The translations under genes and the position numbers were made by a program. Positions 4,084-60,438 of a DNA stretch of 64,000 nt are shown here, in pieces. The notes under the pieces were generated by a model, which was not told the origin of the DNA, did not search any database, and saw nothing but the letters and a program-made list of their open reading frames with translations. Positions within the stretch are counted from its first letter, which is position 1. Every line of letters starts with the position of its first letter. This DNA comes from a phage. Where the stretch lies: sequence record PZ445489.1, one strand, 5' to 3'.

Positions 4084-4365
4084 TTAGTTCTGTACTGTAA
4101 ATTCATTCTTATCACAGTGAGCATAATAATACCCATACATACGATAAATTTTCACAGCCTTAGTAGACCCCTTCGATTCTTCATAATCAATCCAGAGCCA
4201 CTTGTCTTTACCTACATAATGTACCCGAAACTTCTTAGCTTTCTTATCATTCCATGTTGCAACAACACGACGATAATCAAATCCGCCCAACCAATCTAGA
4301 GCCTTACGTTCTTCACTAGGCTCTCCAAGATGGGAGACATCTACTTTAGGAAGCAATTCGCTCAT
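4084..4365 (-). CDS. hypothetical protein (93 aa)
   Basis: ORF immediately downstream of nrdD; no radical-SAM CxxxCxxC motif. Confidence 0.45.
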   Translation of the reverse strand: MSELLPKVDVSHLGEPSEERKALDWLGGFDYRRVVATWNDKKAKKFRVHYVGKDKWLWIDYEESKGSTKAVKIYRMYGYYYAHCDKNEFTVQN

Positions 4366-4399
4366 AGCTTTCTCCTCTCAAATTTATAAATCTATTATA

Positions 4400-4450
4400 T
4401 ATAAATTTTTGGCTGAAAGCAAATAAAATAAAAGCCAGGTCGACTAGCAA
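4400..4450 (-). terminator. candidate hairpin after nrdD
   Basis: Imperfect hairpin agccgggttgc..ctggct followed by T-rich run on minus strand. Confidence 0.35.
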
Positions 4451-4464
4451 CCCGGCTGATTAGC

Positions 4465-6339: not shown

Positions 6340-6426
6340 TATACTCTCCTTCTCTAACTAAGACTACTATTATAACTCATTCGAGGGCGGATGTCAACAA
6401 TATTTTACTATAAAGTTCTGTAACAT

Positions 6427-6480
6427 GATCTGAGTCAAAAAATTTTATTTGCCAATCTCTATTAAAAATTGTATAATCAC
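6427..6480 (+). promoter_or_regulatory. T5-type early promoter
   Basis: TTGCCA 6439-6444, 17-nt spacer, TATAAT 6462-6467. Confidence 0.6.
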
Positions 6481-6576
6481 GCACTCGTGCACGCGATATA
6501 AAATGATTATCTAGTATCACACATCTCACGTTAAAAGCAAGCAAATTTTTTATTTAAATGCAATATCATAGGCTTA

Positions 6577-6630
6577 TTTAAAATTGTAGTTGCTTTTTAC
6601 TGTATATATTGGTATAATATATTTGTAAGT
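6577..6630 (+). promoter_or_regulatory. T5-type early promoter
   Basis: TTGCTT 6589-6594, 17-nt spacer, TATAAT 6612-6617. Confidence 0.65.
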
Positions 6631-6691
6631 TGATAAACAAGATCTTTTTGTTGATCCTCTGTTAGCGAAGTACACTATAGGAGTGTTATTT

Positions 6692-7444
6692 ATGGGAAAA
6701 GCACGTCAAAAAAGAGAGAACCGCAATGGTTCAAGAAAGCGTGGCAACAAATATGAGAATAACGTAATTCAGGCTGATTTTTCTAATGATTACGCTAACC
6801 CAGTTGCTAAATCCCTAGTAGGTAAAAACCGCGAGCAAAAATCATATATCAATATGATCAAGAACAACACAGTGACTGTGGGTATCGGTGAGCCAGGTAC
6901 TGGTAAAACCTTTATTCCGTCCGTTCTTGCAGCTCAGGAACTAGTAGACATTCACTCAGATATTGAGCAAGTGATTCTCGTACGTCCTAATGAACCTCTA
7001 GGTAAGTCTCTTGGTATGCTTCCTGGTGATCTAGCGGAAAAGCTAGAGCCTTGGTTGGAGCCAATAGCTGATGGTATGAAATGGGCCATCGGCGATCATG
7101 CATATAAAGGATATGTCGAACGTCAGAAAATTAAATTTTTGGCTATCGAACATGCTCGTGGCAGAACTTTCAACAACTCCTATGTAATTGTCGACGAAGC
7201 TCAGAATATTTCCGTTGAGGCAATGATTTGTCTCCTAACTCGTGTAGGGCAAGACTGCCGTTTAATTATCTGCGGAGATATAGCTCAGAAAGACATTAAA
7301 GGTGACTCAGGTCTAGCACTCCTTCTGGAAGTCTATGAGAAATATGAAAATGCCCCATTCTCAATGATCGAATTGATTGATAACGTTCGTTCTGTTGAGT
7401 CTAAAGCATTCTATGACATTTTTAAAGACATGGGGAAGGTGTAA
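6692..7444 (+). CDS. phoH: PhoH-like ATPase
   Basis: Walker A GEPGTGKTF, Walker B VIVDEAQN; ATG 6692 after AGGAG (track start 6683 is GTG). Confidence 0.85.
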   Translation: MGKARQKRENRNGSRKRGNKYENNVIQADFSNDYANPVAKSLVGKNREQKSYINMIKNNTVTVGIGEPGTGKTFIPSVLAAQELVDIHSDIEQVILVRPNEPLGKSLGMLPGDLAEKLEPWLEPIADGMKWAIGDHAYKGYVERQKIKFLAIEHARGRTFNNSYVIVDEAQNISVEAMICLLTRVGQDCRLIICGDIAQKDIKGDSGLALLLEVYEKYENAPFSMIELIDNVRSVESKAFYDIFKDMGKV

Positions 7445-7445
7445 T

Positions 7446-7667
7446 ATGGGAAACGTCGTTCATCTGAGCCGTAAAACTAAAATACATCGTACTTCACTGA
7501 GTGCTGCTAATATGATTACACGTAAGGAAGGGGAAGAAAGTCCTAAGACAACCCTAGCGTGGAAAATTGTAACCTCAAACCCAAATAAACCATTCAATTA
7601 TAACGAGCTGAGCACCTCCATAGATATTCTATTAAAAGAAGTAGCTAGAGCTAAAGTAATTGAATAA
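7446..7667 (+). CDS. hypothetical protein (73 aa)
   Basis: ATG overlaps phoH stop (TAATATG); track start 7377 lies inside phoH. Confidence 0.45.
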   Translation: MGNVVHLSRKTKIHRTSLSAANMITRKEGEESPKTTLAWKIVTSNPNKPFNYNELSTSIDILLKEVARAKVIE

Positions 7668-7729
7668 GCTAAAAAGCTAGACTGGTAATATACAGGCCTG
7701 GGTATGAAAATACTCGGGCCTTTTCTATC

Positions 7730-7783
7730 AGAAAATTTTATTTGCCTAATGACCAATAATAATGTAGAATATTCCTTAAATCC
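7730..7783 (+). promoter_or_regulatory. T5-type promoter upstream of nrdA
   Basis: TTGCCT 7742-7747, 17-nt spacer, TAGAAT 7765-7770. Confidence 0.55.
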
Positions 7784-7808
7784 TGATAACTATAAAAAGG
7801 AAAGCCAA

Positions 7809-10139
7809 ATGAGCCATCGCATTGAAAAAGTAATTAAACGTGACGGTACTGTAGAAGACTTTGCTCCTGAAAAACTCAATGGTTGGGCAGAGTATGGTTG
7901 CAAAACAGTTGATGTAAGTTGGTCAGCCATTACTATGGCTGCTCAAAAAACTCTACCTAAAGGGGTTGTAGATTCCGACACTCTGATGGACGCATTAATT
8001 AAAGCTGCTGAAAGTCTTATCAAAGATAATCCAGCATACGATGTGCCAGCAAAGGAATTACGTCTTGCGCAAATGCGTAAACGCCTTTATGATTCTTTCG
8101 AACCACCCTCTCTACGCTTCTTCCATGACCATATGGTTAGCGTAGGTGCATGGGAAGACATGAGTGCATGGATTACCGATGAGCAATTTGAAGCTCTGAA
8201 TCAGGTTATAGACCACGATCGTGACCGTCTTTTTACTAGTGGTGGACTGAAGCAGTTCTTTGATAAGTATTCCCGTCGTAACATAGCCACTGGTGAAATT
8301 TACGAAACCCCGCAGTTTGCCTACATGGGTATGGCAATGGCGATGTTATCTCAACCTAACTGGACAATTCTAGATGCAATCGACCTCTACAACGCAATGT
8401 CACTCCACAAAATCAACGTTCCTACGCCGCCACTGGTTGGTCTGCGCTCTAGTGACCGTGGATTTGCTAGTTGCTGCCTCGTGGATTCCACTGACACGTT
8501 GGATTCAATCGACACCGCCGAGCACATCGTCTTCAAAATGGTCGCAGCCAGAGCGGGAATCGGGTATCATCTTGAAAGCCGATCAATTGCTGATCCGGTG
8601 CGAAATGGGGCATTCCCACATTCCGGAAAACTGCCATATTATCGACACATTGACCGCTCAGTAAAGGCCAATACTCAGCAAACTCGTGGTGGTTCTGCCA
8701 CAGTGTCTTATCCATACTTCGACCCTGAAATCATTCAATTGATGCAGGTTAAGCAACAACGTGCTACAGATGAGAATAAAATCGATAAGATGGATTATTC
8801 TCTGAGCTTTAACAATCTTTTGTTAAAACGTTATCTTAAAAACGAGGATATTACGCTAATGTCATACTTCTATGCTCCAGAAGTTCATGAAGCGTTTTAT
8901 AGTGATGACGAGGCTAAATTTGAAGAAATCTACGTGGCAGCGGAGAAACGTGTGGCATCTCTTACAAAGATCGACCACGAAGGAAAAACAGTTCCTGCAG
9001 CTCCTAAAGTCTCTGCAAAAGAAATCCTAGATACTTGGCTACGTATCCGAATGGAAACAGGACGTATGTATGCTCATCACATCGGGGAATCTAATCGTCA
9101 CGGTAACTTCCTTGATCCAATCCGTATGACAAACCTTTGTGTTGAAATTACTCAGCCTACGCGCCCGTTCCATCATATCACAGAACTGTATAAGACAAAA
9201 GAGCAGCTTGATCAAATGAAGCCGGAGGATATTGGTGAAGTATCTCTGTGTAACTTAGGTGGTGTTGTACTGGGGCGCATGGAATCTCTGGCTGAGTGGG
9301 AAAAAACTTGCTACATCCTCCTGAAATTCGTTGATACAATTATTGAAATTCAGGATTATCCGTTCCCAACTATGGAATATACGGCTAAGAAACGTCGTAA
9401 TGTTGGTATTGGCCTAATGAACGCAGCAGGTGCAATGGCAGCAGAAGGTCTGGCTTATGAAGGTATTGAAGCCCGTAACTGGATTCACCGTGAGGCTGAA
9501 AAACTGTCCTACTTCCTGCATAAAGCCTCTGTACGCCTAGCTAAAGAACAGGGTGCATGTGAGTGGTTTGATCGTACTAAACCATCTAAAGGAATTCTGG
9601 TAATCGACACGTACAAGAAAACTGTTGATGAACTGGTATCCGTAGGTCTAGAAATGGATTGGGAGTCTCTGCGTGCAGATATTCTGAAATACGGTATGCG
9701 TAACTCTGTTCTGACTGCTCAGATGCCAGGAGAAAGTTCTTCTGTTCTGTTAGGTGTTACTAATTCTATTGAACCGCCTCGTAAGATTGTATCTATCAAG
9801 GGTAGTGCAGTGAATAAAGTAATTGCAATTGCTCCGGGTGCAACCGATTGGGAAACGTTAATGAGCTATAAACTGGCTTATGATGTAGATCGTATCGAGT
9901 GGATCAAATGGGTAGCAACTATGCAGAAATTCTTCAGTCAGTCTATCAGTACGAATATGTACTATGACTACACCAAGTTTGAGAATGAAATCATTCCTGG
10001 TCCAGTAGTAGTTCGTGATTTCATGACTGCTGTTAAGTATGGGTGGAAGACTTTCTACTACGCAAACTTCAACACCGCTAATGGTGGTGGTGCAGGGGAA
10101 GAATCCGCAGGCTGCGCTTCTGGTGGTTGTACCATCTAA
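7809..10139 (+). CDS. nrdA: ribonucleoside-diphosphate reductase alpha subunit (class Ia)
   Basis: ATP-cone HRIEKVIKRDGT, NLCVEI active-site region, C-terminal CASGGC; start chosen at ATG 7809 after promoter and RBS. Confidence 0.9.
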   Translation: MSHRIEKVIKRDGTVEDFAPEKLNGWAEYGCKTVDVSWSAITMAAQKTLPKGVVDSDTLMDALIKAAESLIKDNPAYDVPAKELRLAQMRKRLYDSFEPPSLRFFHDHMVSVGAWEDMSAWITDEQFEALNQVIDHDRDRLFTSGGLKQFFDKYSRRNIATGEIYETPQFAYMGMAMAMLSQPNWTILDAIDLYNAMSLHKINVPTPPLVGLRSSDRGFASCCLVDSTDTLDSIDTAEHIVFKMVAARAGIGYHLESRSIADPVRNGAFPHSGKLPYYRHIDRSVKANTQQTRGGSATVSYPYFDPEIIQLMQVKQQRATDENKIDKMDYSLSFNNLLLKRYLKNEDITLMSYFYAPEVHEAFYSDDEAKFEEIYVAAEKRVASLTKIDHEGKTVPAAPKVSAKEILDTWLRIRMETGRMYAHHIGESNRHGNFLDPIRMTNLCVEITQPTRPFHHITELYKTKEQLDQMKPEDIGEVSLCNLGGVVLGRMESLAEWEKTCYILLKFVDTIIEIQDYPFPTMEYTAKKRRNVGIGLMNAAGAMAAEGLAYEGIEARNWIHREAEKLSYFLHKASVRLAKEQGACEWFDRTKPSKGILVIDTYKKTVDELVSVGLEMDWESLRADILKYGMRNSVLTAQMPGESSSVLLGVTNSIEPPRKIVSIKGSAVNKVIAIAPGATDWETLMSYKLAYDVDRIEWIKWVATMQKFFSQSISTNMYYDYTKFENEIIPGPVVVRDFMTAVKYGWKTFYYANFNTANGGGAGEESAGCASGGCTI

Positions 10140-10198
10140 TATTAACAAGGGGACATACGTCCCCTTTATTAGACCTTCTATGGCTGTAATTTTAAATT

Positions 10199-10681
10199 AT
10201 GGAAGAAAAATACAAAGAAATAGTGGGGTTATTTGATTATAATCCAGAAACAGGGATATTTACCCATAAAGCTAGAGAAGATAAATCCTTCAATACTAGA
10301 TTTGCTGGCAAAGAAGCTGGTTCTCTAGAAAAATGCTCTGGATATATTGTAATGCAAGTAAAAGGCACTAAGTATTACGCGCATATCCTAGCATTCCTTA
10401 TCGTTAATGGGTATATTCCAAAGGAAGTAGATCACGATAATAGAATACGGCACGATAACCGAGCTATTAATTTAAAGGCCTCTGACAGACACAGTAATGG
10501 TAAAAATGTCGGGGCGCACAAAGATAATAAATTAGGTATTAAAAATATTCACCAAAAAGCGAGTGGATCTTACCAGGTACAGATAGCCCGTAAAGGTGTA
10601 AAATATACTAAAACATTCAAAGAACTTGAGGATGCTATAGAGTGGCGCGATATGAAACTATTGGAGCTTGATAGTTTATAA
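10199..10681 (+). CDS. HNH homing endonuclease
   Basis: HNH-like VDHDNRIRHDNRAINL plus C-terminal AP2-like DNA-binding region; sits between nrdA and nrdB. Confidence 0.7.
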   Translation: MEEKYKEIVGLFDYNPETGIFTHKAREDKSFNTRFAGKEAGSLEKCSGYIVMQVKGTKYYAHILAFLIVNGYIPKEVDHDNRIRHDNRAINLKASDRHSNGKNVGAHKDNKLGIKNIHQKASGSYQVQIARKGVKYTKTFKELEDAIEWRDMKLLELDSL

Positions 10682-49386: not shown

Positions 49387-49729
49387 AGTATATATTCTTG
49401 CAAATAGGGATCTGACGAAGATCCCTAAGAGAACAAAGATCGGTATTAGTATGAATCCACATAATAGGATTCAAACACTAAACTTAGATAAGATAGTTTA
49501 TCGTGGTTTTGACGATTTATACGTGTATGGGATCTATGAAACCCATAATCCTAGAGATCTAGAAGCCGCTGCACATATCTACTTTAAGAAATACCGCTGT
49601 AATTTAAAGGGATTCGAAGGATGCACAGAGTTCTTTGATATTCACCCACAACTTGCAGAACGATTCCTATTAAATACAGGAGCCAAGAAGATTTACGACC
49701 CCAATATCAATCTCGAAGGAGATGTATAA
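49373..49729 (+). CDS. GIY-YIG-like nuclease domain protein (118 aa)
   Basis: YKVYIL...KIGISMNPHNRIQTL resembles the GIY-(N10)-YIG-..R..N pattern; weak. Confidence 0.4.
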   Translation: MSLYKVYILANRDLTKIPKRTKIGISMNPHNRIQTLNLDKIVYRGFDDLYVYGIYETHNPRDLEAAAHIYFKKYRCNLKGFEGCTEFFDIHPQLAERFLLNTGAKKIYDPNINLEGDV

Positions 49730-49734
49730 ACGTT

Positions 49735-49790
49735 AACAAAATCTTCTTGACAACTCATTGCGGAACATGTTATAATAATCTCATAGATTA
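49735..49790 (+). promoter_or_regulatory. near-consensus sigma70 promoter with no downstream ORF
   Basis: TTGACA 49747-49752, 18-nt spacer, TATAAT 49771-49776. Confidence 0.5.
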
Positions 49791-49815
49791 AAAACAACTC
49801 TTGTTTTGAACTCTA

Positions 49816-49911
49816 GGGGCGATGATTATTACACTTAGTATTACGTCTATACGTTGCGACAGCACGAGTATAGATCTAATTACTAAGTCTTCCGTAATAC
49901 TCACGCGCCCC
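49816..49911. repeat. imperfect nested palindrome (about 95 bp)
   Basis: ggggcg..gtattacg..ctatac..gtatag..cgtaatac..cgcccc. Confidence 0.5.
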
Positions 49912-50224
49912 ACGAGGAATCTCACATGAAATGGGGGTATATTTACTTTTAAATAACTAAAAATATTTAAAGGCAATATCTGTGTTCAAGATGATACACC
50001 TGTTGCCGCTCATCTGCTAGGATGGCACAACACTTTCTAGTAGACTCCTAAGTTTCTAGGAATAGTTGAGCACTAACTCTAGAGTTTACATTAAACTTTA
50101 AATCTGTTTCTCTAGCCAACTCAGGCGGTTTTCATTGTTCCTAGAAACTCTAGCAATAGGCGGTTATAGGGAGGGCGGTTATTTCTAGAAGACATTTTTT
50201 GAAAACACATTTCCAGAAATTACT

Positions 50225-50825
50225 GTCGGATTTGCACACTGCATTTCTAGAAATTTATGGTCGGATTTGCACAAACGCCTAAGTTTTTAGGGACACATAA
50301 TCTCCTGAAAATAGCAGCATTATTTCGGGCCGAAGGCCCATGATTGCCTGAGTTTTTAGAGCCACAGAAATTTTCACTTGTCAAGCTATTTTGCCCCGTT
50401 TAGCTAATAAAATTTTACTTTTTCTGCACCTATCTCAAATTAACCCAAATTATCTCACATCTTCCCCAAAATCCCCGCAAATCAGGTGCTCCGCACCAAA
50501 CATGCGCCCCATCCTTCTAGCCTCCCAAATTTCTCTCACTCTCTCATCTTCTCCTCAAACCCACACAATCACACACCCTCCAATCGAAGTCACAAAAATC
50601 TTGTCGGATTCGCACAAATAAACCCATGTCGGATTTGCACATATTCTAGCTAATTCCACAGGATTGATGCGCAGCATCGGATTGCTGGAGTTTTTGGGAA
50701 AATTCATTGTCGGATTTGCACACTATAAAAATTTTTCGGGTCGGATTTGCACACTACCAAAAATTGTCGGATTCGCACATACATGCCCGCACGTAACACC
50801 CGTGGAGCAATGTCGGATTTGCACA
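50225..50825 (+). repeat. eight direct copies of 14-bp box GTCGGATT(T/C)GCACA
   Basis: Copies at 50225, 50260, 50603, 50628, 50709, 50740, 50766, 50812, all same orientation. Confidence 0.8.
50510..50585 (+). other. G-free C/T/A tract on + strand (about 75 nt)
   Basis: cctcccaaatttctctcactctctcatcttctcctcaaacccacacaatcacacaccctc has no G. Confidence 0.7.
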
Positions 50826-50871
50826 AAAGCGCAGGGCAATTGCCCTGCTAGCCTGAATGCGAATGATAATA

Positions 50872-51000
50872 AGAATCATTATCATTTAAAAAGCGAAATG
50901 AGAACTATTCAAAAAGTGAAATGATTCTCATTTAGGAAAGGAAATGATTATCGGTTAGAAAGTGAAATGCGAATGAGAATAATTCTCATTTAAGAATGGA
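50872..51000. promoter_or_regulatory. cluster of palindromic AATGAGAAT-N-ATTCTCATT-type operator-like boxes
   Basis: Palindromes at 50872-50896, 50928-50943, 50982-51000 plus GAAATGA half-site repeats. Confidence 0.55.
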
Positions 51001-51023
51001 AGTGAGAAACACTGTTATTTAAG

Positions 51024-51105
51024 TTATCCACAGACTTATTAACAGCACGATTTGACTTGACAGAATCCTAGCCATTTTGAGGCGTTATTAACAGACTTAT
51101 CCACA
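51024..51105 (+). promoter_or_regulatory. two DnaA-box-like TTATCCACA sites
   Basis: TTATCCACA at 51024-51032 and 51097-51105. Confidence 0.5.
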
Positions 51106-51129
51106 GCTTATCCTACTGTATAAATATAC
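51094..51129. repeat. 36-bp inverted repeat, left copy (partner 54637-54672)
   Basis: gacttatccacagcttatcctactgtataaatatac; 34 of 36 match reverse complement of right copy. Confidence 0.7.
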
Positions 51130-51327
51130 AGTATTCCTACGTAGTGAATAATTCTAATATACCGCTAAAACGTCCTAGATCGCATTCTAACGCGTTTAAT
51201 TTTGGTGGGGATACTAAAACAAGGGCAAAATTGGAGGAGGCTTAAAAATTAGTTAGCCCGCTAACGATCACACAAGTCGACACGTAACACCCTAATCATT
51301 AGCAGGCTAACCATCGCGGGCGCGCTC

Positions 51328-51348
51328 AAATGAGAATGATTCTCATTT
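51328..51348. promoter_or_regulatory. palindromic operator-like box AAATGAGAATGATTCTCATTT
   Basis: 10-bp arms, same family as the 50.9-kb boxes; just beyond 3' end of leftward operon. Confidence 0.5.
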
Positions 51349-51389
51349 GAGAATTGGGGGCACTCCCTGGTAGTTGCGCCCCGTTATTA

Positions 51390-51584
51390 TTAATCCGGTA
51401 ATTGATGCGTGATCTTCTCCTCTTCCCCATAGGAATCGACCAAATGCTGATAATAACCATCGGCATCATAAATAACGCTATCATATTCCCCCCGCTCGAC
51501 CGCTTGCCGGTTTTCCGGCGTATCGGGCACGTAAAAAACATCAACCATTGTACTGATTTTGGTTACAACAATTTTATTGCTCAT
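51390..51584 (-). CDS. hypothetical pre-early protein (64 aa)
   Basis: ORF, last gene of leftward operon; ATGA overlap with upstream gene. Confidence 0.45.
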   Translation of the reverse strand: MSNKIVVTKISTMVDVFYVPDTPENRQAVERGEYDSVIYDADGYYQHLVDSYGEEEKITHQLPD

Positions 51585-51925
51585 TGCGCCACCTTTCGAA
51601 ACGCTGTTTCAATACTATCCGCAGTGGATTGAATATACGCGCCTTTCATTACTAGGCGCTCGGTGCATACCTTGCGGAAAATATTAATAAAATCATCTTC
51701 ATTTTCTGCAATTAATGCTTCACCCATAACCTGAACGTCACAAGATGCAAAGGTCAAAAATTGAAACGCTAGTTCACGGGCAACGACCGCATTAATCTTA
51801 TAATGCGCTTTGCCCTCATAAATATTAATAACGCCCTTATAAGCTGGTGAAAGCTGGTTTAAATAGTTTGCTAACAATGCCGGGCGGCAATTAGCAACAA
51901 AGCGGTTGCCCTCATAAATAACCAT
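51581..51925 (-). CDS. hypothetical pre-early protein (114 aa)
   Basis: ATG after GGGAGG RBS (track start 51940 is upstream in-frame). Confidence 0.5.
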   Translation of the reverse strand: MVIYEGNRFVANCRPALLANYLNQLSPAYKGVINIYEGKAHYKINAVVARELAFQFLTFASCDVQVMGEALIAENEDDFINIFRKVCTERLVMKGAYIQSTADSIETAFRKVAQ

Positions 51926-51926
51926 T

Positions 51927-52052
51927 TTATAACCTCCCAATCAGATAGCCAGATAAAAGCATAAAAACCCCCAGTAAAAGGGGATCATTCTTAAATAGGG
52001 TGGCGGTAAAACCGCCAACCATTGCAAGGATAATAATAATAACGCTTTTCAT
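51927..52052 (-). CDS. small hydrophobic membrane peptide (41 aa)
   Basis: Single TM helix; stop overlaps next start; below ORF-track cutoff. Confidence 0.3.
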   Translation of the reverse strand: MKSVIIIILAMVGGFTATLFKNDPLLLGVFMLLSGYLIGRL

Positions 52053-52261
52053 AGTACCCCACGAAACGCAGCGTAAAAGGTGGCAAAGTGTTTAACCGTT
52101 TCAGCGATCACGTTGCCGCGCTTGTCAAATTTCTTTTCTGTAACACGAAAGGCATTCTTATTACGTGCTACATATTCGATTTTACAATCTTCACGCTCGA
52201 ACGTGTTAACATCCACCAGCTTAAAGCCTTTCGAACGGGCAAGGGAAACATTGCGGATCAT
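52049..52261 (-). CDS. hypothetical pre-early protein (70 aa)
   Basis: ATG after AAGGAG RBS. Confidence 0.5.
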   Translation of the reverse strand: MIRNVSLARSKGFKLVDVNTFEREDCKIEYVARNKNAFRVTEKKFDKRGNVIAETVKHFATFYAAFRGVL

Positions 52262-52263
52262 TT

Positions 52264-52419
52264 TTATTCTCCTTTACTAGTCATGCAGCCCAGCAGATAA
52301 GAAAATGCAGCGATACCTGCGCCAATAATAACCGCGTGAACGCCGAAAGCTATTGCAAACAACGATAAAATAGCGCCCAAGATACCCGCTAAAATAGCTC
52401 GAAAAATAACCATTTTCAT
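52264..52419 (-). CDS. small hydrophobic membrane peptide (51 aa)
   Basis: Single TM helix; below ORF-track cutoff. Confidence 0.3.
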   Translation of the reverse strand: MKMVIFRAILAGILGAILSLFAIAFGVHAVIIGAGIAAFSYLLGCMTSKGE

Positions 52420-52460
52420 TCCCCCTAGTTAGTGGGGCGAAAATAACGCCCCGTTATTAA

Positions 52461-52769
52461 TTACATTAAAACAATTTTAGCCGCTTGTTTTTTGGTGCAA
52501 TGTTCTGCTTTCAGGGTATCCAGCAAAAAGCCCGCCGTTTGCTGATCGATTTGATCATTATCATAAAGCGCCTGAATGGTAGTGTATGTTTTAGCAATGC
52601 CATATTCTTGCACCATTTCGTGAATAATAACGCGGTTAGATACCCAGCCTTGAGCGGTGAACAGATGACTAGCAGAAGAATAAGCAACCATTTTAAGCCT
52701 CCAATTTTTGGGAAAATTTTCAACCGTCCTCAAACGGTGTAAAGGCATTATAACAAAAAAGGCCACCAT
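52461..52769 (-). CDS. hypothetical pre-early protein (102 aa)
   Basis: ORF. Confidence 0.5.
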   Translation of the reverse strand: MVAFFVIMPLHRLRTVENFPKNWRLKMVAYSSASHLFTAQGWVSNRVIIHEMVQEYGIAKTYTTIQALYDNDQIDQQTAGFLLDTLKAEHCTKKQAAKIVLM

Positions 52770-52796
52770 AAAAGGCGACCTTTACAAAACTTTACA

Positions 52797-53291
52797 TTAG
52801 ACTACTTGTAGGGATTCAATATTGAAACATCGTTTCAATTCGTCATGCAAAACAGCATATTCATCCCATCGGGTACTATCAGGAATATAAACAAGCTGTT
52901 TTAATCGATTTGCGTATATTACCGCTTTGTTACCAACTATCTCGACGCCACCATATTTAATAATTAATCTCATGACGGAATTAATAGGATCGCCGCCGTT
53001 TACATATGTGCCGGATTTACTTAATTGATAATGATAAAGGCTTGCATATACGTTTTCATTTTCATACCATTCGCCAGTTTCTTCGTCTTCGTAACCATCG
53101 CTACCAAAACGAGAAGCATTATCAATAGCCATTTCCTGAGCGAAAGCGTCCAGATTACAGCCAGCTGGAACAAAATGTTCCTCCGTCCAACCTTCCCCGC
53201 AATAGCCAGTATGACAATCGACCAAAATGATCATATCATGTTTTGCCATGCTCACTTCTCCCAGTGAGAAGCCATATTTTTCATCAGCCAT
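52797..53291 (-). CDS. hypothetical pre-early protein (164 aa)
   Basis: ORF with GGAGG RBS. Confidence 0.55.
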   Translation of the reverse strand: MADEKYGFSLGEVSMAKHDMIILVDCHTGYCGEGWTEEHFVPAGCNLDAFAQEMAIDNASRFGSDGYEDEETGEWYENENVYASLYHYQLSKSGTYVNGGDPINSVMRLIIKYGGVEIVGNKAVIYANRLKQLVYIPDSTRWDEYAVLHDELKRCFNIESLQVV

Positions 53292-53356
53292 TTATTAGCC
53301 TCCTATTAATTAACAAGGGAATACTAAAGCGGGGTAACAATCCCCGCTTAGTATTA

Positions 53357-54367
53357 TTACTCGCTTTCGGTGTTAGTAGTAAAAGTAGAAATATCAATAC
53401 CTTTTACCATTTCATCAATCATTTCAGCGATGTTAAAACTTTGCACCATTTCTAACATAGCCGCTTCCATAGCCGCGCCTGCTACCGCTTTCGCTTTCTG
53501 GTTACTCGGGGCATACTGGTCAACCGCTACACTCAGCAGGTTGGCAATCACTACCCGACCAATCGGTGTATCAATATAACCTTTGATCATAAACGGTGCT
53601 TTTTTAGCCGCTACTTTCGTGATTTGAGTCAATGCAATTTTACCTGCTTCCAGTTTTGCAGCATTTACAACAGCGGATTTATTAGCGGCAACAATATTAG
53701 CGATCTTGGTCATGGTGTTTTTTCCTTTGTTTTCAGTAGTTTGAATTTTAACGCTTTGAGTGTTAGAATTTACAGCATGGTTTTCTACGCTGTCAATAAT
53801 CTGATCTTCATCTTTCCAGAAAGAAAAACCAGCGCTTTCTATATCCCCATCATAAATATATGGGTATAGCTCCCGTGGTAACAAAAAATTACCGTCGCCA
53901 TCAAAAGCCATTATACCGGTATATTGAGATCCGTCGTTATCCGGCTTATGCCATCCAGCCGGTAAATACTTCCAGATAACATCTAAAAATCCCTCAATAC
54001 TAGAAAGTCCGTTTATCAGATCAAGCCCAATAAGCTCAAAACCATTTATATTAAATGATTGACGGCCTGAATTGCTATGATACGCAACAATATTATTACC
54101 CTGTGCAACAATAAAATCGGTATCCGGCCCCGCTCCCCTGCCAGTAAAGATATGGCAATCACGGTTATATAAAACTAGCGTTGCCCCGTACTTATATAAT
54201 GGCAAAAAACCTTCCATATCATAGGCGTCATAGTCATCAAAAAAGTTTTGATGAATAGTTTCAGCCTTGTTAATAAAATGTTTAATGCTGGTTGACTTGC
54301 TACCGTCCAGCAGGTTACGCAGCGCACCTTTTAAGACGGTAGCATTATCAGGTTTATACAGCCTCAT
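53357..54367 (-). CDS. hypothetical pre-early protein (336 aa)
   Basis: First and largest gene of leftward operon; RBS GGAGG. Confidence 0.55.
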   Translation of the reverse strand: MRLYKPDNATVLKGALRNLLDGSKSTSIKHFINKAETIHQNFFDDYDAYDMEGFLPLYKYGATLVLYNRDCHIFTGRGAGPDTDFIVAQGNNIVAYHSNSGRQSFNINGFELIGLDLINGLSSIEGFLDVIWKYLPAGWHKPDNDGSQYTGIMAFDGDGNFLLPRELYPYIYDGDIESAGFSFWKDEDQIIDSVENHAVNSNTQSVKIQTTENKGKNTMTKIANIVAANKSAVVNAAKLEAGKIALTQITKVAAKKAPFMIKGYIDTPIGRVVIANLLSVAVDQYAPSNQKAKAVAGAAMEAAMLEMVQSFNIAEMIDEMVKGIDISTFTTNTESE

Positions 54368-54636
54368 TTGTTCGGCCTCCCTCGTTAATCGGTGAGTGAA
54401 TGATATAGATATTTTCTTTCTAGGGGCAAATATTATTTTACCTTTTTATTTTCCTTGCCTAGCGCCTAGTTTTATGCTAACCGCGCAGCGGTGCAATAAA
54501 GAGCAAAACACGGCGAAGCCCCCAGGGCGACGGGTGAAGGCTTTACTTTAATATTACCCCACCGCATTTAGCTCGTTAGAAAGCGTTTTAGGCCGCTTAA
54601 AATTGATTGCAGTTGTTAACACTACCTTTTTACCTT

Positions 54637-54672
54637 GTATATTTATACAGTAGGATAACATGTGGATAAGTC
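54637..54672. repeat. 36-bp inverted repeat, right copy (partner 51094-51129)
   Basis: gtatatttatacagtaggataacatgtggataagtc. Confidence 0.7.
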
Positions 54673-54742
54673 TGTGGATAAGCCCTTATATCGCCGCCTA
54701 TTGTGTCAAATCATTTTGTGCTGTGGATAACGTTGTGGATAA
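54661..54742 (-). promoter_or_regulatory. cluster of four DnaA-box-like sites
   Basis: TGTGGATAA on + strand at 54661, 54673, 54722, 54734 (TTATCCACA on minus). Confidence 0.55.
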
Positions 54743-55025
54743 CTTAAATGATAGTGGTTCTCACTTAGGCCGATAGTTTCTTATAGTTATTATTTCTATT
54801 GGTTACGATTTCTTATAATTATTATTTCTCATTAATTTATATGTATATTATATATCATGAAATAGTTAGTTGGCTAATGAGATTTTCCGTGATTAATAGT
54901 CTGCTAATAATTTAAGCCGTTACAATCCACCAGCACGATTATCATCCTAGCAATTATAAGCCTGCTATTCTCCCAATACACACTAACAAACAAAAGTCAA
55001 TTAATTTATTTCATAAAATAAGTAG

Positions 55026-55058
55026 TTATCCACTGGAAAATAAAAGTCAAGTGGATAA
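55026..55058. promoter_or_regulatory. inverted pair of DnaA-box-like sites
   Basis: agttatccact and agtggataact, 11-bp arms 14 nt apart. Confidence 0.5.
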
Positions 55059-55459
55059 CTAGGAAAATTTCATTTTTGCTTTTTGGGGATAAGTTATCAA
55101 CAAGGCTAGAATGCGCCTAAAACGCCCTAGAACGCGATGAAAGTTTTAGCCATGCCATTGCATTGCCTACCCTCGTTTATCGCTGCCACGAGCTTTTTAA
55201 GTTTTGTCAATACCCCCAAAGCAAATATAGATGAAAAAATTACTTGCCAACCTGCTGGGTTTTATGGTATTCGCGCGCCCGTTTCTTTTAATTTTAGTGC
55301 GGCGCGCCCAGGTCGCCGCACGCCGTCCGGTTAATCGTGTCTTTACGTTTCTTTACAAAAATAAGGTTGCGCCATTTTTGGTATTTGCTATTATTTACCA
55401 CGTAGGGCGGCAATGACGAACTACACGGCGGGAAGTTTACCGCCGCGCTCTTTAAAAAT

Positions 55460-55483
55460 TGGGTACATCTTAAAGCCTATCGG
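55460..55483. repeat. 24-bp perfect inverted repeat, left arm
   Basis: tgggtacatcttaaagcctatcgg; exact reverse complement at 55729-55752. Confidence 0.8.
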
Positions 55484-55516
55484 CGGTAAACTTATTCATT
55501 ATAAGGAATCGACGAT

Positions 55517-55720
55517 ATGAAACAAACTTTATTGATCACTGGTAAACCTAGCAAGGCACTGGACAGCAAAACAAAAAATTTGTTGACAGTAGCGCAAAGA
55601 TCGGTAAAATATCGATTTAAGCAGTACAAGAAAGGCCGCCAGCAAGGTCTGGAAATGATCTGGCGTAATATTATGATTGACTTAAAAGAAAATCATAAAA
55701 AACTGCAAAAAATTGTTTGA
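55517..55720 (+). CDS. small basic protein (67 aa) bracketed by 24-bp inverted repeat
   Basis: ATG with weak purine-rich RBS (GGAATCGACGAT upstream); Lys/Arg-rich. Confidence 0.45.
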   Translation: MKQTLLITGKPSKALDSKTKNLLTVAQRSVKYRFKQYKKGRQQGLEMIWRNIMIDLKENHKKLQKIV

Positions 55721-55728
55721 CACCCTAG

Positions 55729-55752
55729 CCGATAGGCTTTAAGATGTACCCA
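55729..55752. repeat. 24-bp perfect inverted repeat, right arm
   Basis: ccgataggctttaagatgtaccca. Confidence 0.8.
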
Positions 55753-55947
55753 GTTCGATAAGAGCGATAACTTGATAAAATTTGACGGTCGGCACTTACC
55801 ATAATGTGCCCCGCCCCCTAACTGGGATATAGCGGCCTGCGTGGAGTTCTTTAAATTGATTATATTGGCGAGCGGATTGTTGCTTATTACCTGCTAGAAA
55901 GTAGCAGGTAATGCGGAACAATCCCCTAAATAACTGGAGTTTATACT

Positions 55948-56199
55948 ATGCAAAACGTTATCATTACGCCGAAAGTTGGTCAATCCGTTTTTATTCCTTT
56001 CGTTACTAAAACGGATGAATTAACCGGAAAGGCCGAACGCATTAAAGGCGCGGCGCTTATGCCGTTCGATACAATCGACGCGGTATACGCTGAAACGGAA
56101 CGGAGTAACAACGGCAAAACCGTTTTTAGCGTTCGCGTTAAATCCGGCGACGTTGTAAAGGTTGTCCAGCGTAACGAAAAATGGGAAGCTGTAGCGTAA
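55948..56199 (+). CDS. hypothetical pre-early protein (83 aa)
   Basis: ATG after GGAG RBS. Confidence 0.5.
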   Translation: MQNVIITPKVGQSVFIPFVTKTDELTGKAERIKGAALMPFDTIDAVYAETERSNNGKTVFSVRVKSGDVVKVVQRNEKWEAVA

Positions 56200-56300
56200 T
56201 ATAGTGTTAACTTTATATTCCTCTGAAATATGGGGAATATAATGATTAACATTAAGTTAATCATTAAATCCCTTAAATTAAACTAACAGGAGCTACAATC

Positions 56301-56708
56301 ATGACTAACGTTAAAACCGCAAAATTCTCATGGAATGAAGAAAACACCCAAAAAGCTGTTACCATGTACCAGCAGTTAATTAATGAAAACGGTTTAGATT
56401 TCGCAAATAGCGACGGCCTGAAAGAGATTGCAAAAGCAGTTGGCGCGGCCTCCCCCGTGTCCGTTCGCTCAAAATTGACCAGCGCGAAAGCGTATCAGAA
56501 AAGCGATAAGCCGCGCAAAGTTGGCGGCGGTAGCTCAATCCGCAAAGCGCATTATGTGCGCGTTATTGCAAAACACGCTATCGATTCCGGCATTATCAAA
56601 GACGCCGACGATCTGGCATCACTGGAAAGCGCAAAACTGGAAACGCTGGACGCCGTGGCGCAACTGTTAGGCGTTGCCGATGAAGTGAAACAAGCCGCAG
56701 GCGAATAA
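56301..56708 (+). CDS. A2: pre-early protein, A2-like by size and position
   Basis: 135 aa, AGGAG RBS, directly upstream of A1-like gene; assignment by synteny and size only. Confidence 0.4.
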   Translation: MTNVKTAKFSWNEENTQKAVTMYQQLINENGLDFANSDGLKEIAKAVGAASPVSVRSKLTSAKAYQKSDKPRKVGGGSSIRKAHYVRVIAKHAIDSGIIKDADDLASLESAKLETLDAVAQLLGVADEVKQAAGE

Positions 56709-56765
56709 ATTTAATTAGTGGGGAATATTCCCCACTATAATTTCCCTTTGACTGGAGTTATTAAA

Positions 56766-56963
56766 ATGATCTTTTACCCTACTGAATCCTTAATTCTAGG
56801 CTTATTTATTATGGCGGCCTCATTACTATTCGCTTATTTTCAAAATGATTTAGATTCATATTATTTTAAACGTAAATCTAAGTTAGCAAAGCGTTTAGGT
56901 CTGATTTGTTTTATTGCCGCCGTTGTTTGTGGTGTTAGTTCTAGCCTTATGCCTTTAAATTAA
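56766..56963 (+). CDS. small membrane protein (65 aa)
   Basis: ATG after GGAG RBS; two hydrophobic segments (track start 56718 is upstream). Confidence 0.45.
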   Translation: MIFYPTESLILGLFIMAASLLFAYFQNDLDSYYFKRKSKLAKRLGLICFIAAVVCGVSSSLMPLN

Positions 56964-57060
56964 TGTTGCAAATTATAACGCCTCAAATAATAGGCGTTAT
57001 ATTTGGCAATATTTGCCAATAACAAACGTTTTTTAATCCCTTTAATGGAGTTTTATTACT

Positions 57061-58725
57061 ATGATTATTTCCGCAGAAAAACAAACCGTTATCCTGAAAA
57101 TGGCCGCTGACTTTAATTTCTACGGTAAACGTCTGCGCGCTACTAAACTGGAGGTCTGCGACGATATATCAAAAGCGGTTTACGATACTCCAAAACATTC
57201 CACCGCTATTTGTGATTGGCTGGAAGCAAATAAACCAGCGAAACCGAAAGCGGCGAAAGTAGCAAAAGCCATTAAAAACGATGAGCGCCCAGAAGCGGCG
57301 GGGATTGTTTCTAGCACGGTGGAAAGCTGGGAAGTAAAACAAGGCAAACGCTTTATTATTACATCGATTCAGAATAATACGTTCCCGCATAAAAACTTTT
57401 TAGCCTCACTGGAGCAATTTGCTAAATATATCGGCGCTGATTTGCTGGTTAGCAAGTATATTTATAATAAAAACGGATTCCAAAATGGCGAGGGCGCGGA
57501 TGGAATAAAATATGATTCCGCGTTCGATAAATATATTTGCAGCAAAAACGTGTTTTTGAATAATCGCCGTTTTGCTTTCATGGCTGAAATTAATGTTTTG
57601 CCCACCGCAGATTATCCGCTTTCTGGATTCGCTGAAACTGCAACCGCGCTTAATCTGGAAGGTCTGGCAATTGGTCACGCTAAAATCACCGCCGAAAGCG
57701 TGCCAGCTTTAAAAGGTGAAGTAGTGCGCCGCATGTATTCAACTGGCACGGCAACGCTTAAAAATTACATCCAGCAGAAAGCAGGACAGAAAGCGGAAGC
57801 ACTGCATAACTTCGGTGCGCTGATTGTTGAGTTCGACGAAGACGGTGAGTTTTTTGTTCGCCAGCTTGAAACAATGGACGAAAGCGGGGTGTTTTATGAT
57901 CTGAATGTTTGCGCTACTCCCGCCGGATGCTATGAAACATCGGGGCATGTTTTAGGCTTACAATACGGCGATATTCACGCAGAAAAATTAGATGAAGAGT
58001 GCGCCGCCGCGTCATGGGCTGGCGAAAATAGCTTGCTTGATATTCTTAAACCAAAATATCAGTTTATCCATGACGTTCACGACTTTACATCACGCAACCA
58101 TCACAACCGCGCTTCGGGTGTATTCCTAGCAAAACAATACGCCGCCGGACGTGATAAAGTTCTGGATGATCTTATCGATACCGGTCGCGTGCTGGAATCA
58201 ATGGAACGTGATTTCTCGCAAACAATCATTGTTGAATCTAATCACGATCTGGCGCTATCCCGTTGGCTGGATGATCGTAATGCTAACATTAAAGACGACC
58301 CCGCAAACGCGGAACTATATCACCGCCTTAATGCCGCGATTTATGGCGCTATTGCAGAAAAAGACGATACTTTCAACGTGCTAGATTATGCGCTGCGTAA
58401 GGTTGCAGGTTGCGAGTTTAACGCCATTTTCCTAACGACTGACCAATCATTTAAAATTGCAGGCATTGAATGCGGCGTACACGGTCACAATGGCATAAAC
58501 GGCAGCCGTGGCAATCCGAAACAGTTTAAGAAATTGGGCAAATTAAACACGGGGCACACTCATACCGCCAGCATTTACGGCGGGGTATATACCGCTGGCG
58601 TGGCTGGTAGTCTGGACATGGGTTACAACGTTGGCGCGTCAAGCTGGACACAAACGCATTTAATTACCTATGCAAATGGTCAGCGTACTTTGATCGACTT
58701 TAAGAACGGTAAATTTTTTGCGTAA
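57061..58725 (+). CDS. A1: pre-early protein A1-like with calcineurin-like phosphoesterase motifs
   Basis: 554 aa; GDIHAE, ESNHD and GHTHTAS resemble Mre11/SbcD-type metallophosphoesterase motifs; size matches T5 A1 as I recall it. Confidence 0.55.
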   Translation: MIISAEKQTVILKMAADFNFYGKRLRATKLEVCDDISKAVYDTPKHSTAICDWLEANKPAKPKAAKVAKAIKNDERPEAAGIVSSTVESWEVKQGKRFIITSIQNNTFPHKNFLASLEQFAKYIGADLLVSKYIYNKNGFQNGEGADGIKYDSAFDKYICSKNVFLNNRRFAFMAEINVLPTADYPLSGFAETATALNLEGLAIGHAKITAESVPALKGEVVRRMYSTGTATLKNYIQQKAGQKAEALHNFGALIVEFDEDGEFFVRQLETMDESGVFYDLNVCATPAGCYETSGHVLGLQYGDIHAEKLDEECAAASWAGENSLLDILKPKYQFIHDVHDFTSRNHHNRASGVFLAKQYAAGRDKVLDDLIDTGRVLESMERDFSQTIIVESNHDLALSRWLDDRNANIKDDPANAELYHRLNAAIYGAIAEKDDTFNVLDYALRKVAGCEFNAIFLTTDQSFKIAGIECGVHGHNGINGSRGNPKQFKKLGKLNTGHTHTASIYGGVYTAGVAGSLDMGYNVGASSWTQTHLITYANGQRTLIDFKNGKFFA

Positions 58726-60345: not shown

Positions 60346-60438
60346 CTAAGTACCGGGCGGTAATGAGACTCATTCTCATCTGGAGGGCCACTGGACACAC
60401 CTCCATGTGTAATCTTATGAAATTTGGCAAAAAGTCAA

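What the first reader, a model, noticed from the sequence alone, without database searches (positions are those of the whole stretch)
51094..54672. 36-bp inverted repeats with DnaA-box-like sites bracket a 3.5-kb leftward operon of small pre-early genes
Two 36-bp segments (51094-51129 and 54637-54672) are reverse complements at 34 of 36 positions and each contains TTATCCACA. Further DnaA-box-like copies cluster beside both (51024; 54661, 54673, 54722, 54734; 55026/55051). Between them lie eight minus-strand ORFs (51390-54367), including two tiny TM peptides. The layout could be an invertible or mobile cassette, an origin-like or host-DnaA-titrating locus, or the boundaries of a regulatory domain in the first-step-transfer DNA. 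I have no way to tell which from sequence alone.
Basis: partly seen in the sequence, partly recalled or inferred. Interest (0 to 1): 0.65.

Follow-up and report, generated by a model that had tools for sequence, protein, structure and literature searches.

The report
Known T5 inverted repeats with DnaA boxes
The two inverted segments are the already described 131-bp "IRC/IRD" repeats of phage T5 and its relatives, non-coding arrays of host DnaA-binding sites (and, as I found, a near-perfect LexA site) that flank a block of pre-early genes next to the point where T5 pauses DNA injection; their function is still untested.

Summary
The window is a T5-like phage (Tequintavirus) terminal repeat read in reverse. 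The 36-bp repeats (34/36) are the cores of 131-nt arms (51000-51130 and 54636-54766, 103/131). These arms are T5's IRD'-spacer-IRC' and IRC-spacer-IRD, named by Wang 2005 and analysed by Davison 2020, who proposed that their eight DnaA boxes form part of the injection stop signal. That function has not been tested.

I confirmed four box slots per arm at fixed offsets, with mirror polarity, across seven genera. The arms are not a switch, transposon or origin:
- No recombinase or transposase lies between them.
- A synthetic inversion-isomer junction matched 0 of 535 phage records.
- The two arms are not homogenised.
- No unwinding element is conserved beside them.

Three points go beyond the papers I could read:
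1. Each arm ends in a LexA-type SOS operator. The copy at 51114-51133 scores 26.4 bits, above all 18 authentic E. coli boxes.
2. The gene block between the arms is inverted in Sugarlandvirus and Myunavirus, while the arms keep their polarity.
3. The A2-proximal arm is dispensable. It is deleted naturally in JLBYU43, and my primer mapping places it inside the deletion of the viable T5 ΔLΔR mutant.

The parts
51000..51130 (.). iss-proximal arm, equivalent to T5 IRD'-spacer-IRC' (NC_005859 9411-9541)
   Evidence: Inverted repeat I1. It aligns to T5 at 93% over positions 1-123. Synteny with T5 is shown. Davison 2020 describes the element.
54636..54766 (.). A2-proximal arm, equivalent to T5 IRC-spacer-IRD (NC_005859 6098-6228)
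   Evidence: It is 103/131 identical to the reverse complement of the other arm.
51024..51044 (+). DnaA-box pair 1 of the left arm: TTATCCACA, a 3-bp gap, then TTATTAACA (variant)
   Evidence: The box offsets are fixed in 36 unique orthologous arms.
51085..51105 (+). DnaA-box pair 2 of the left arm: TTATTAACA (variant), a 3-bp gap, then TTATCCACA
54661..54681 (-). DnaA-box pair of the right arm: two exact TTATCCACA boxes 3 bp apart
54722..54742 (-). Second DnaA-box pair of the right arm: two exact TTATCCACA boxes 3 bp apart
51114..51133 (.). LexA-type SOS-box palindrome TACTGTATAAATATACAGTA at the operon-facing end of the left arm
   Evidence: It has 1 mismatch to the consensus, and shuffles gave no match. 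It scores 26.4 bits on a PWM built from 18 authentic E. coli boxes, above all of them. It is conserved in 36 of 36 unique iss-proximal arms at >=22.6 bits.
54633..54652 (.). Weakened copy of the same palindrome (CTGT-N8-ACAA) at the operon-facing end of the right arm
   Evidence: It scores 16.7 bits. The family consensus at this position keeps ACAG.
54400..54429 (-). Promoter-like site for the enclosed operon (TTGCCC, 18 nt spacer, TATCAT), at the position of T5's annotated promoter upstream of T5.011
   Evidence: One search found the site. The T5 annotation at 6411-6489 maps here through. This is a consensus match only.
53357..54367 (-). First gene of the operon, a T5.011 homologue (DUF7566, 336 aa)
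52797..53291 (-). 164-aa gene (phrog_6741); absent from T5, present in BF23, Sepoy and My1
52461..52769 (-). T5.012 homologue (the PHROG profile covers residues 27-102)
52264..52419 (-). 51-aa hydrophobic peptide (T5.013 homologue)
52049..52261 (-). 70-aa Ung-dependent nickase of abasic sites (100% identical to the T5 protein)
51927..52052 (-). 41-aa hydrophobic peptide (phrog_19184)
51581..51940 (-). 119-aa gene (homologue of the T5 8300-8644 product)
51390..51584 (-). 64-aa last gene of the operon (T5.017 homologue)
51300..51382 (-). Two strong hairpins downstream of the last gene, including the 21-bp palindrome AAATGAGAATCATTCTCATTT; no U-tract follows
   Evidence: (MFE -38.8 kcal/mol, z = -3.8).
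55026..55102 (.). Four further 8-of-9 DnaA-like boxes in two facing pairs, outside the right arm (T5 'repeat region 1' side)
   Evidence: They are conserved in BF23 and absent in T5.

Best explanation
The two segments are the IRD'-spacer-IRC' and IRC-spacer-IRD inverted repeats of the T5-family terminal repeat. Each 131-bp arm is a non-coding module with four DnaA-box slots, arranged as two head-to-tail pairs 3 bp apart with the pairs 61 bp start-to-start. Each arm ends in one LexA-type palindrome. The two modules sit in mirror image on either side of the second pre-early transcription unit.

[quoted passage not shown] DnaA was proposed by Davison; LexA is my addition. The copy next to the injection-stop region marks or anchors the end of the first-step-transfer DNA while transfer is paused. 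The A2-proximal copy is an accessory.

What is shown:
- the identity of the element;
- its anatomy;
- its family-wide conservation;
- the dispensability of one arm.

What is inferred:
- that DnaA and LexA bind;
- that binding contributes to the pause.

My estimates: identity about 0.97; DnaA and/or LexA occupancy in vivo about 0.6; a causal role in the injection pause about 0.35.
For: Identity:
- Window 50000-56000 is the reverse complement of T5-type LTR coordinates ~4300-10400.
- The arms are 131 nt, as in T5.
- The T5 record annotates 9140-10149 as the injection stop signal.
- Davison 2020 describes the 131-bp pair, the eight boxes in pairs 3 bp apart, and the membrane-DnaA stop model.

Constraint:
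- The arm occurs in 543 phage records.
- The box slots sit at identical offsets in 36 + 33 unique arms.
- Box polarity (+ in the iss arm, - in the A2 arm) holds in Tequinta-, Epseptima-, Sugarland-, Myuna-, Novosib-, Pogseptima- and Thalassavirus, where A1 is only 30-74% identical.
- The genes in between are variable.
- The two arms evolve as separate orthologous lineages: iss-iss identity 83%, a2-a2 79%, own-pair 73%. The shared blocks are therefore kept by selection and not by exchange between arms.
- Canonical host consensus sequences are retained across deep phage divergence. This favours host factors over co-evolving phage proteins, but it is an inference.

LexA:
- The site scores 26.4 bits, above every authentic E. 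coli box, and all 36 iss arms score >=22.6 bits.
- The composite motif occurs only in T5-sized viral contigs and essentially never in 596 Gb of bacterial genomes.
Against: - No binding or genetic test of the boxes exists. The BF23 paper says experimental studies are lacking, and the 2026 papers still call the mechanism unknown.
- A protein bound to DNA that is already inside the cell does not obviously stop pressure-driven entry.
- One arm is dispensable, so the pair cannot be an obligatory unit.
- Half of the slots in the iss-proximal arm hold variant boxes (TTATTAACA, TTATCAACA) of unknown affinity.
- Aeromonas phage AhSzw-1 has boxes but no LexA-type site.
- All hosts are Gammaproteobacteria and share the same DnaA and LexA specificities, so host-motif co-variation cannot be used as a test.
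Confidence: 0.45

Rival explanations
1. The arms are recognition sites for phage proteins and not for host proteins. The dimeric DNA-binding protein A2, alone or with the A1 phosphoesterase, binds the palindrome and boxes. This would restart transfer, cut the DNA, or join the two terminal repeats.
For: [quoted passage not shown] A2 is a DNA-binding dimer with no known site. Davison proposes A1/A2 cleavage at a palindrome in this region. A2 co-occurs with the arms in every genus examined.
Against: The sites keep the exact host consensus (TTATCCACA; CTGT-N8-ACAG) while A2 diverges to 39% identity. Co-evolving phage protein-site pairs usually drift. The A2 model shows two three-helix bundles with no significant fold match and nothing LexA-like, so this is uninformative.
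Confidence: 0.2
2. The arms are transcriptional insulators. Protein-loaded box arrays on both sides stop RNA polymerase from running out of, or into, the very strongly transcribed pre-early unit, and in particular into DNA still threaded through the tail.
For: The arms bracket exactly one unit, from the promoter-like site at 54400-54429 to the hairpins at 51300-51382. The mirror polarity of the boxes is kept relative to the outside even where the operon inside is flipped. Orientation-dependent transcription blocks by DnaA-box complexes are established knowledge (asnC/dnaA work of Messer's laboratory; cited from memory, not checked here).
Against: The hairpins lack U-tracts, and the scans are no better than shuffles. 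Loss of one arm is tolerated. No transcript maps were available to me.
Confidence: 0.15
3. The arms form a replication origin or a datA-like DnaA sink.
For: Each arm holds four boxes in a helically phased array. An AT-rich 16-bp x3.3 tandem repeat lies 35 bp outside the right arm.
Against: The 13-mer unwinding motif is not enriched: 38 matches against 49 expected. The AT-rich repeat varies from 3 to 0 copies among close relatives. T5 origins were mapped near the genome centre, and the replication genes are not yet in the cell during the pause. Eight sites on a single-copy DNA cannot compete with the host chromosome.
Confidence: 0.05
4. The segment is a programmed invertible or mobile cassette that flips or moves between the arms.
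For: Homologues of T5.011, the 164-aa gene and T5.017 lie in reversed order on the other strand in Sugarlandvirus and Myunavirus. The arms, A2/A1 and the early genes keep their orientation there.
Against: None of the eight genes is a recombinase or transposase. A synthetic inversion junction covers >=80% in 0 of 535 records, against 176 of 544 for the native junction. All 30 Tequinta/Epseptima loci have one orientation and all 6 Sugarland/Myuna loci the other. The arms are not homogenised, and their longest exact shared run is 23 bp.
Confidence: 0.03

Closest known systems
T5 IRC-spacer-IRD / IRD'-spacer-IRC' (repeat regions 2 and 3 of the T5 left terminal repeat; Wang et al. 2005 nomenclature; Davison 2020, bioRxiv 10.1101/866236)
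   Same: The arm length (131 nt), the position relative to A2/hdi, T5.011-017 and the injection-stop region, the paired DnaA boxes 3 bp apart, and the sequence (93% for the iss arm) all match.
   Different: This phage has all eight slots filled, six of them exact. T5 has seven boxes or variants, only three of them exact. This phage lacks the hegG homing-endonuclease insertion, and its inter-arm block is 3505 nt with a different gene set.
E. coli DnaA-box clusters (oriC, datA)
   Same: Both have arrays of TTATCCACA-type 9-mers in one orientation at short fixed spacing, with strong sites next to weaker ones.
   Different: No conserved unwinding element lies beside the arms. The gap between paired boxes is 3 bp; from memory it is 2 bp in the oriC arrays. 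No replication or DnaA-inactivation role is known.
LexA SOS operators of E. coli (for example umuDC, sbmC, tisB/istR2)
   Same: The arms carry a 20-bp palindrome TACTG-(AT-rich 10)-CAGTA. The window site differs from the tisB/istR2 box by one base and outscores all 18 authentic boxes.
   Different: The site is not placed over a recognisable promoter. It sits in non-coding DNA of a virulent phage, next to DnaA boxes. Binding is untested.
Invertible DNA segments (Hin, Gin, Cin; shufflons)
   Same: Inverted repeats flank a gene block that exists in both orientations among related genomes.
   Different: There is no invertase, no mixed orientations within a lineage, and the arms are long and divergent instead of short crossover sites.

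Membership tests
T5-family IRC/IRD inverted-repeat pair (injection-stop-associated) | Two ~131-bp arms in inverted orientation inside the long terminal repeat | tested here: met
   The arms are 51000-51130 and 54636-54766, 131 nt each, 79% complementary. The region maps to T5 LTR coordinates.
T5-family IRC/IRD inverted-repeat pair (injection-stop-associated) | One arm lies between the A2/hdi side and the T5.011 operon; the other lies downstream of the last pre-early gene, at the start of the non-coding iss repeat region | tested here: met
   Synteny with NC_005859. The DRD-type repeats (GTCGGATTTGCACA x8) follow at 50217-50827.
T5-family IRC/IRD inverted-repeat pair (injection-stop-associated) | Four DnaA or variant boxes per arm, in pairs separated by 3 bp, at fixed positions | tested here: met
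   Offsets 38/50/99/111 are found in all 36 + 33 unique arms, including this one.
T5-family IRC/IRD inverted-repeat pair (injection-stop-associated) | Sequence homology to the T5 arms | tested here: met
   93.5% over 123 nt for the iss arm; 92% over the two end modules for the other arm.
T5-family IRC/IRD inverted-repeat pair (injection-stop-associated) | Acts in cis to arrest DNA transfer at ~8% | not testable with these tools
   This is only proposed in the literature.
Site-specific invertible segment | A recombinase encoded in or next to the segment | tested here: not met
   All eight enclosed genes match PHROGs of unknown or other function. The only Pfam hit is DUF7566. The neighbours are A2, A1, DUF7177 and DUF7416.
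Site-specific invertible segment | Both orientations present within a population or among close relatives | tested here: not met
   0 of 535 records carry the inversion junction. Orientation is fixed within genera. Minor isomers in stocks were not testable.
Composite transposon / insertion sequence | A transposase plus terminal inverted repeats with target-site duplication | tested here: not met
   There is no transposase. By eye-2 sequence, the flanks outside the arms (TTAAGAATGG and the right-hand flank after 54766) share no direct repeat. The position is syntenic in all relatives.
DnaA-dependent replication origin | A DnaA-box array next to a conserved AT-rich unwinding element | tested here: not met
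   The array is present, but the 13-mer motif is not enriched. The adjacent AT-rich 16-bp repeat is not conserved.
LexA (SOS) operator | A palindrome CTGT-N8-ACAG that fits the E. coli box profile | tested here: met
   51114-51133 scores 26.4 bits, against 6.6-24.5 for authentic boxes and a shuffle maximum of 20.2. The right-arm copy scores 16.7 bits and has a broken half-site.
LexA (SOS) operator | Overlaps a promoter and represses it; bound by LexA | tested here: inconclusive
   No convincing sigma-70 promoter overlaps the site (and my reading of the flanks). Binding is not testable here.

The most novel reading that the evidence does not exclude
LexA, together with DnaA, is a host component of the T5 pause-and-restart switch. 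On this reading each arm is a composite landing pad whose strongest element is a better-than-natural SOS operator. The arrested first-step DNA would then be held or marked by a host nucleoprotein complex. That complex could be remodelled when A1-driven destruction of the host chromosome activates RecA and removes LexA. This would link host DNA degradation to resumption of transfer.
Probability: 0.1. Interest if true: 0.8.

Novelty: already known. Interest (0 to 1): 0.3.

Why it matters
How T5 stops injecting its DNA after 8% and restarts a few minutes later has been open for about sixty years. These repeats are the leading candidate for the cis-acting signal, yet nobody has tested them.

The finding itself adds nothing to what Wang 2005 and Davison 2020 described. 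The follow-up gives three concrete handles for experiments that are now feasible with the published T5 engineering methods:
- a LexA-type operator of exceptional quality, conserved in several genera;
- evidence that only the arm next to the stop region can be indispensable;
- evidence that the arms work independently of the orientation of the genes they enclose.

Tried and rejected
- Rfam scan of 49500-56500: only sub-threshold chance hits.
- Sigma-70 and terminator consensus scans: no better than shuffles. They were used only to place T5's annotated promoter.
- DUE 13-mer search: fewer matches than expected.
- The AT-rich 16-bp repeat beside the right arm looked origin-like, but its copy number varies from 3 to 0 among relatives.
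- Fur-box resemblance of the AATGAGAATnATTCTCATT palindromes: one site has 2 mismatches. I did not pursue this further.
- A2 structure, predicted from a single sequence (pLDDT 75): two three-helix bundles with no significant PDB match (best E = 0.35). It is neither LexA-like nor informative.
- Pfam and PDB sequence searches of A2 and A1: nothing.
- Literature searches linking LexA or the SOS box to T5-like phages, or dnaA host-factor screens to T5: nothing relevant in the held library.
- Davison 2015 (Bacteriophage 5:e1086500) was not held. Wang 2005 and Heusterspreute 1987 were not looked up, so an earlier mention of the LexA-type site cannot be excluded.
- Concerted evolution of the arms: rejected.
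- A bacterial chromosomal origin of the composite motif: rejected. The only hit was a single 3-kb MAG contig.


Full report
**Observation.** The two 36-bp segments agree at 34 of 36 positions when one is reverse-complemented. They are the best-conserved cores of a longer inverted repeat. The arms are 51000-51130 and 54636-54766, 131 nt each, identical at 103 of 131 positions and 3505 nt apart.

Exact TTATCCACA occurs seven times in the 64-kb window, and six of those lie in the two arms. With one mismatch allowed the window holds 33 copies against 18.9 +/- 4.1 expected, and none of 100 shuffles reached 33. The excess is concentrated at 51.0-55.1 kb.

The eight minus-strand ORFs are genuine, because each matches a PHROG family. 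One is the Ung-dependent abasic-site nickase. The first is a DUF7566 protein homologous to T5.011.

**What the locus is.** Window 50000-56000 matches 473 phage records, nearly all Tequintavirus or Epseptimavirus. It is the reverse complement of T5-type left-terminal-repeat coordinates ~4300-10400. A2 and A1 lie at 56301-58725 on the plus strand. The repeat's left terminus maps near 60.4 kb, and the sequence beyond it is the right end of the unique region. The assembly therefore holds a single, collapsed copy of the terminal repeat.

In T5 (NC_005859) the same arms lie at 6098-6228 and 9411-9541. The record annotates 9140-10149 as the injection stop signal.

Davison's 2020 preprint (10.1101/866236) describes these arms as IRC-spacer-IRD and IRD'-spacer-IRC', 131 bp each, using names taken from Wang et al. 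2005. It reports eight DnaA or variant boxes in pairs 3 bp apart. It credits the first DnaA box to a 1987 paper. It proposes that membrane-bound DnaA holds the first-step-transfer DNA at these sites. Later papers repeat this as an untested idea. The finding is therefore a rediscovery.

**Anatomy.**
- *Box slots.* Each arm has four box slots at fixed offsets: two head-to-tail pairs with a 3-bp gap, and the pairs 61 bp apart start-to-start.
- *Left arm.* The slots read TTATCCACA, TTATTAACA, TTATTAACA, TTATCCACA, all on the plus strand.
- *Right arm.* All four slots are exact TTATCCACA, on the minus strand.
- *Palindrome.* The operon-facing end of each arm is a palindrome. It reads TACTGTATAAATATACAGTA at 51114-51133, with a weakened copy at 54633-54652.
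- *Inside the right arm.* A promoter-like site lies at 54400-54429, at the position of T5's annotated promoter for T5.011.
- *Inside the left arm.* Two strong hairpins without U-tracts follow the last gene.
- *Conclusion.* The arms bracket one complete pre-early transcription unit.

**Comparative evidence.**
- The arm is found in 543 phage records, usually at two places per terminal-repeat copy.
- I collected 36 unique iss-proximal and 33 unique A2-proximal arms from 47 loci. The four slots never move, and the palindrome is the most conserved block.
- Box polarity (plus in the iss-side cluster, minus in the A2-side cluster, in window orientation) holds in Tequinta-, Epseptima-, Sugarland-, Myuna-, Novosib-, Pogseptima- and Thalassavirus. 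In these genera A1 falls to about 30% identity, and the enclosed genes are unrelated.
- The arms are not being homogenised. Identity between a genome's own two arms (73%) equals iss-versus-A2 identity between different genomes (72%). Orthologous arms are closer: 83% for iss-iss and 79% for A2-A2. In 32 of 33 genomes the nearest relative of an iss arm is another iss arm.
- The shared blocks are therefore kept by selection on the sequence, not by exchange between arms.
- The composite motif (box, TTAT-C, palindrome) occurs in 43 stretches of IMG/VR, all from contigs of 104-123 kb.
- In 596 Gb of bacterial genomes it occurs once, on a 3-kb MAG contig.

*Invertible or mobile cassette.* Nothing between or beside the arms resembles a recombinase or transposase. 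I built the junction that an inversion between the arms would create. No record out of 535 covers 80% of it, while the native junction is covered in 176 of 544.

An inversion did happen in evolution, however. In Klebsiella Sugarlandvirus and Pectobacterium Myunavirus the homologues of T5.011 (36% identity, E = 2e-45), the 164-aa gene and T5.017 lie in reversed order on the other strand. The arms, A2/A1 and the early genes keep their orientation. All 30 Tequinta/Epseptima loci from IMG/VR show one arrangement and all 6 Sugarland/Myuna loci the other. [quoted passage not shown] The collinear protein homology shows that it is a block inversion.

It follows that whatever the arms do does not depend on the direction of the genes inside. 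The arms are the obvious substrate for the inversion, but the breakpoints cannot be resolved.

*Origin or DnaA sink.* The oriC 13-mer is not enriched. An AT-rich 16-bp x3.3 repeat sits beside the right arm, but it varies from three copies to none among close relatives. T5 origins were mapped elsewhere.

**One arm is dispensable.** Phage JLBYU43 lacks the A2-proximal arm: 632 bp of the window (54487-55118) are replaced by about 64 bp, and the operon promoter is retained. This corresponds to Davison's 'type 4'.

A 2026 preprint (10.64898/2026.04.02.716235) reports a viable, small-plaque T5 ΔLΔR mutant deleted from hegG to 017. I mapped its published primers onto NC_005859. This places the deletion at 5394-9160, which removes IRC-spacer-IRD (6098-6228) and leaves the iss-proximal arm. 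Three points about this mapping:
- The primers matched with 0-3 mismatches in the stored text.
- The junction is my inference from the primer design.
- The authors do not discuss the repeat.

The 'knot' formed by both arms in Davison's model cannot be essential for growth. Whether the pause survives is unknown.

**A LexA-type operator.** The palindrome differs from the E. coli SOS-box consensus TACTG(TA)5CAGTA at one position, and shuffles gave no match even with three mismatches allowed.

I built a profile from the 18 authentic boxes listed in PMC3009722:
- The window site scores 26.4 bits. This is above every authentic box in leave-one-out scoring (6.6-24.5) and above the best of 50 shuffles (20.2).
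- All 36 unique iss-proximal arms score at least 22.6 bits.
- 28 of 33 A2-proximal arms reach the median authentic score.
- The same element follows the box cluster in Proteus and Vibrio phages.

Davison 2020 does not mention LexA, and I found no paper in the held library that links LexA to T5-like phages. Wang 2005 and Heusterspreute 1987 were not looked up and Davison 2015 is not held, so priority is uncertain. No promoter overlaps the site, so it is not an ordinary SOS-regulated gene.

**Mechanism.** The best-supported reading is that the arms are cis-acting pads for host DNA-binding proteins that are present before any phage protein is made. The copy beside the stop region would take part in holding or marking the end of the first-step DNA.

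The strongest argument is an inference: the exact host consensus sequences are preserved across phage divergence deep enough to erase the neighbouring genes. Against this reading, nothing has been tested, and a cytoplasmic protein bound to entered DNA does not obviously oppose capsid pressure.

The rivals are:
- recognition by A2 or by the A1-A2 complex;
- transcriptional insulation of the unit;
- an origin or DnaA sink (much less likely);
- an active switch (much less likely).

My attempt to learn something from an A2 structure model was uninformative.

**Verdict.** This is a real, strongly conserved and already described element whose function is still open. The finding itself scores low for novelty. 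The LexA-type operator, the inter-genus inversion and the dispensability of one arm are modest additions that make the old question easier to test.

Noticed in passing
window 50217-50827: Eight copies of GTCGGATTTGCACA-centred 24-nt direct repeats (T5 'DRD' repeats) fill the non-coding stretch between the left arm and the end of the terminal repeat. Their binding partner is unknown.
   Followed up: no
window 50865-51005, 51329-51347, 60362-60380: A family of AATGAGAATnATTCTCATT palindromes. One copy (50865-50883) is 2 mismatches from the E. coli Fur-box consensus GATAATGATAATCATTATC. Another lies about 40 bp from the terminal-repeat terminus. T5 uses the Fur-regulated FhuA receptor, so the resemblance may be worth a look.
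   Followed up: partly
window 54777-54829: An AT-rich 16-bp tandem repeat (TTTCTTATAGTTATTA, 3.3 copies; local GC 27%) lies 35 bp outside the right arm. BF23 has three copies, Sepoy one and T5 none.
   Followed up: yes
window 55446-55484 and 55728-55766: A separate 39-nt inverted repeat (87% complementary, 243 nt apart), equivalent to T5 4669-4707/4951-4989. It flanks the hdi gene region, which holds the strong pre-early promoters.
   Followed up: no
window 51161-51209 and about 54549-54600; also 55115-55141: A weaker third layer of inverted similarity lies just inside both arms (GCCTAAAACGC...TCTAACG...GGTGGGG), with another copy outside the right arm. It is also visible in Klebsiella phage KpnLmqsRe28-2 (L007 9187-9234 and 12828-12875).
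   Followed up: partly
window 50400-50600: A sharp strand-composition anomaly (GC skew -0.72 over 200 nt) near where the T5 terminal repeat ends. It is unexplained.
   Followed up: no
window about 50370 and about 60410: The window holds one copy of the terminal repeat, joined on one side to left-end unique genes and on the other to the right-end unique region (llp, receptor-binding protein, small terminase). The source assembly is therefore collapsed or circularly permuted and does not represent the true linear ends.
   Followed up: partly
window 52797-53291 and about 54830-54996: Gene content differs from T5. A 164-aa gene (phrog_6741) is present here, in BF23, Sepoy and My1 but not in T5. 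T5.016 and the hegG homing endonuclease of T5 are absent here.
   Followed up: yes
L004 (phage JLBYU43) 9258-10248: The T5.011 homologue is split by a frameshift and annotated as two 'DNA N-6-adenine methyltransferase' genes. This is very likely a mis-annotation.
   Followed up: no
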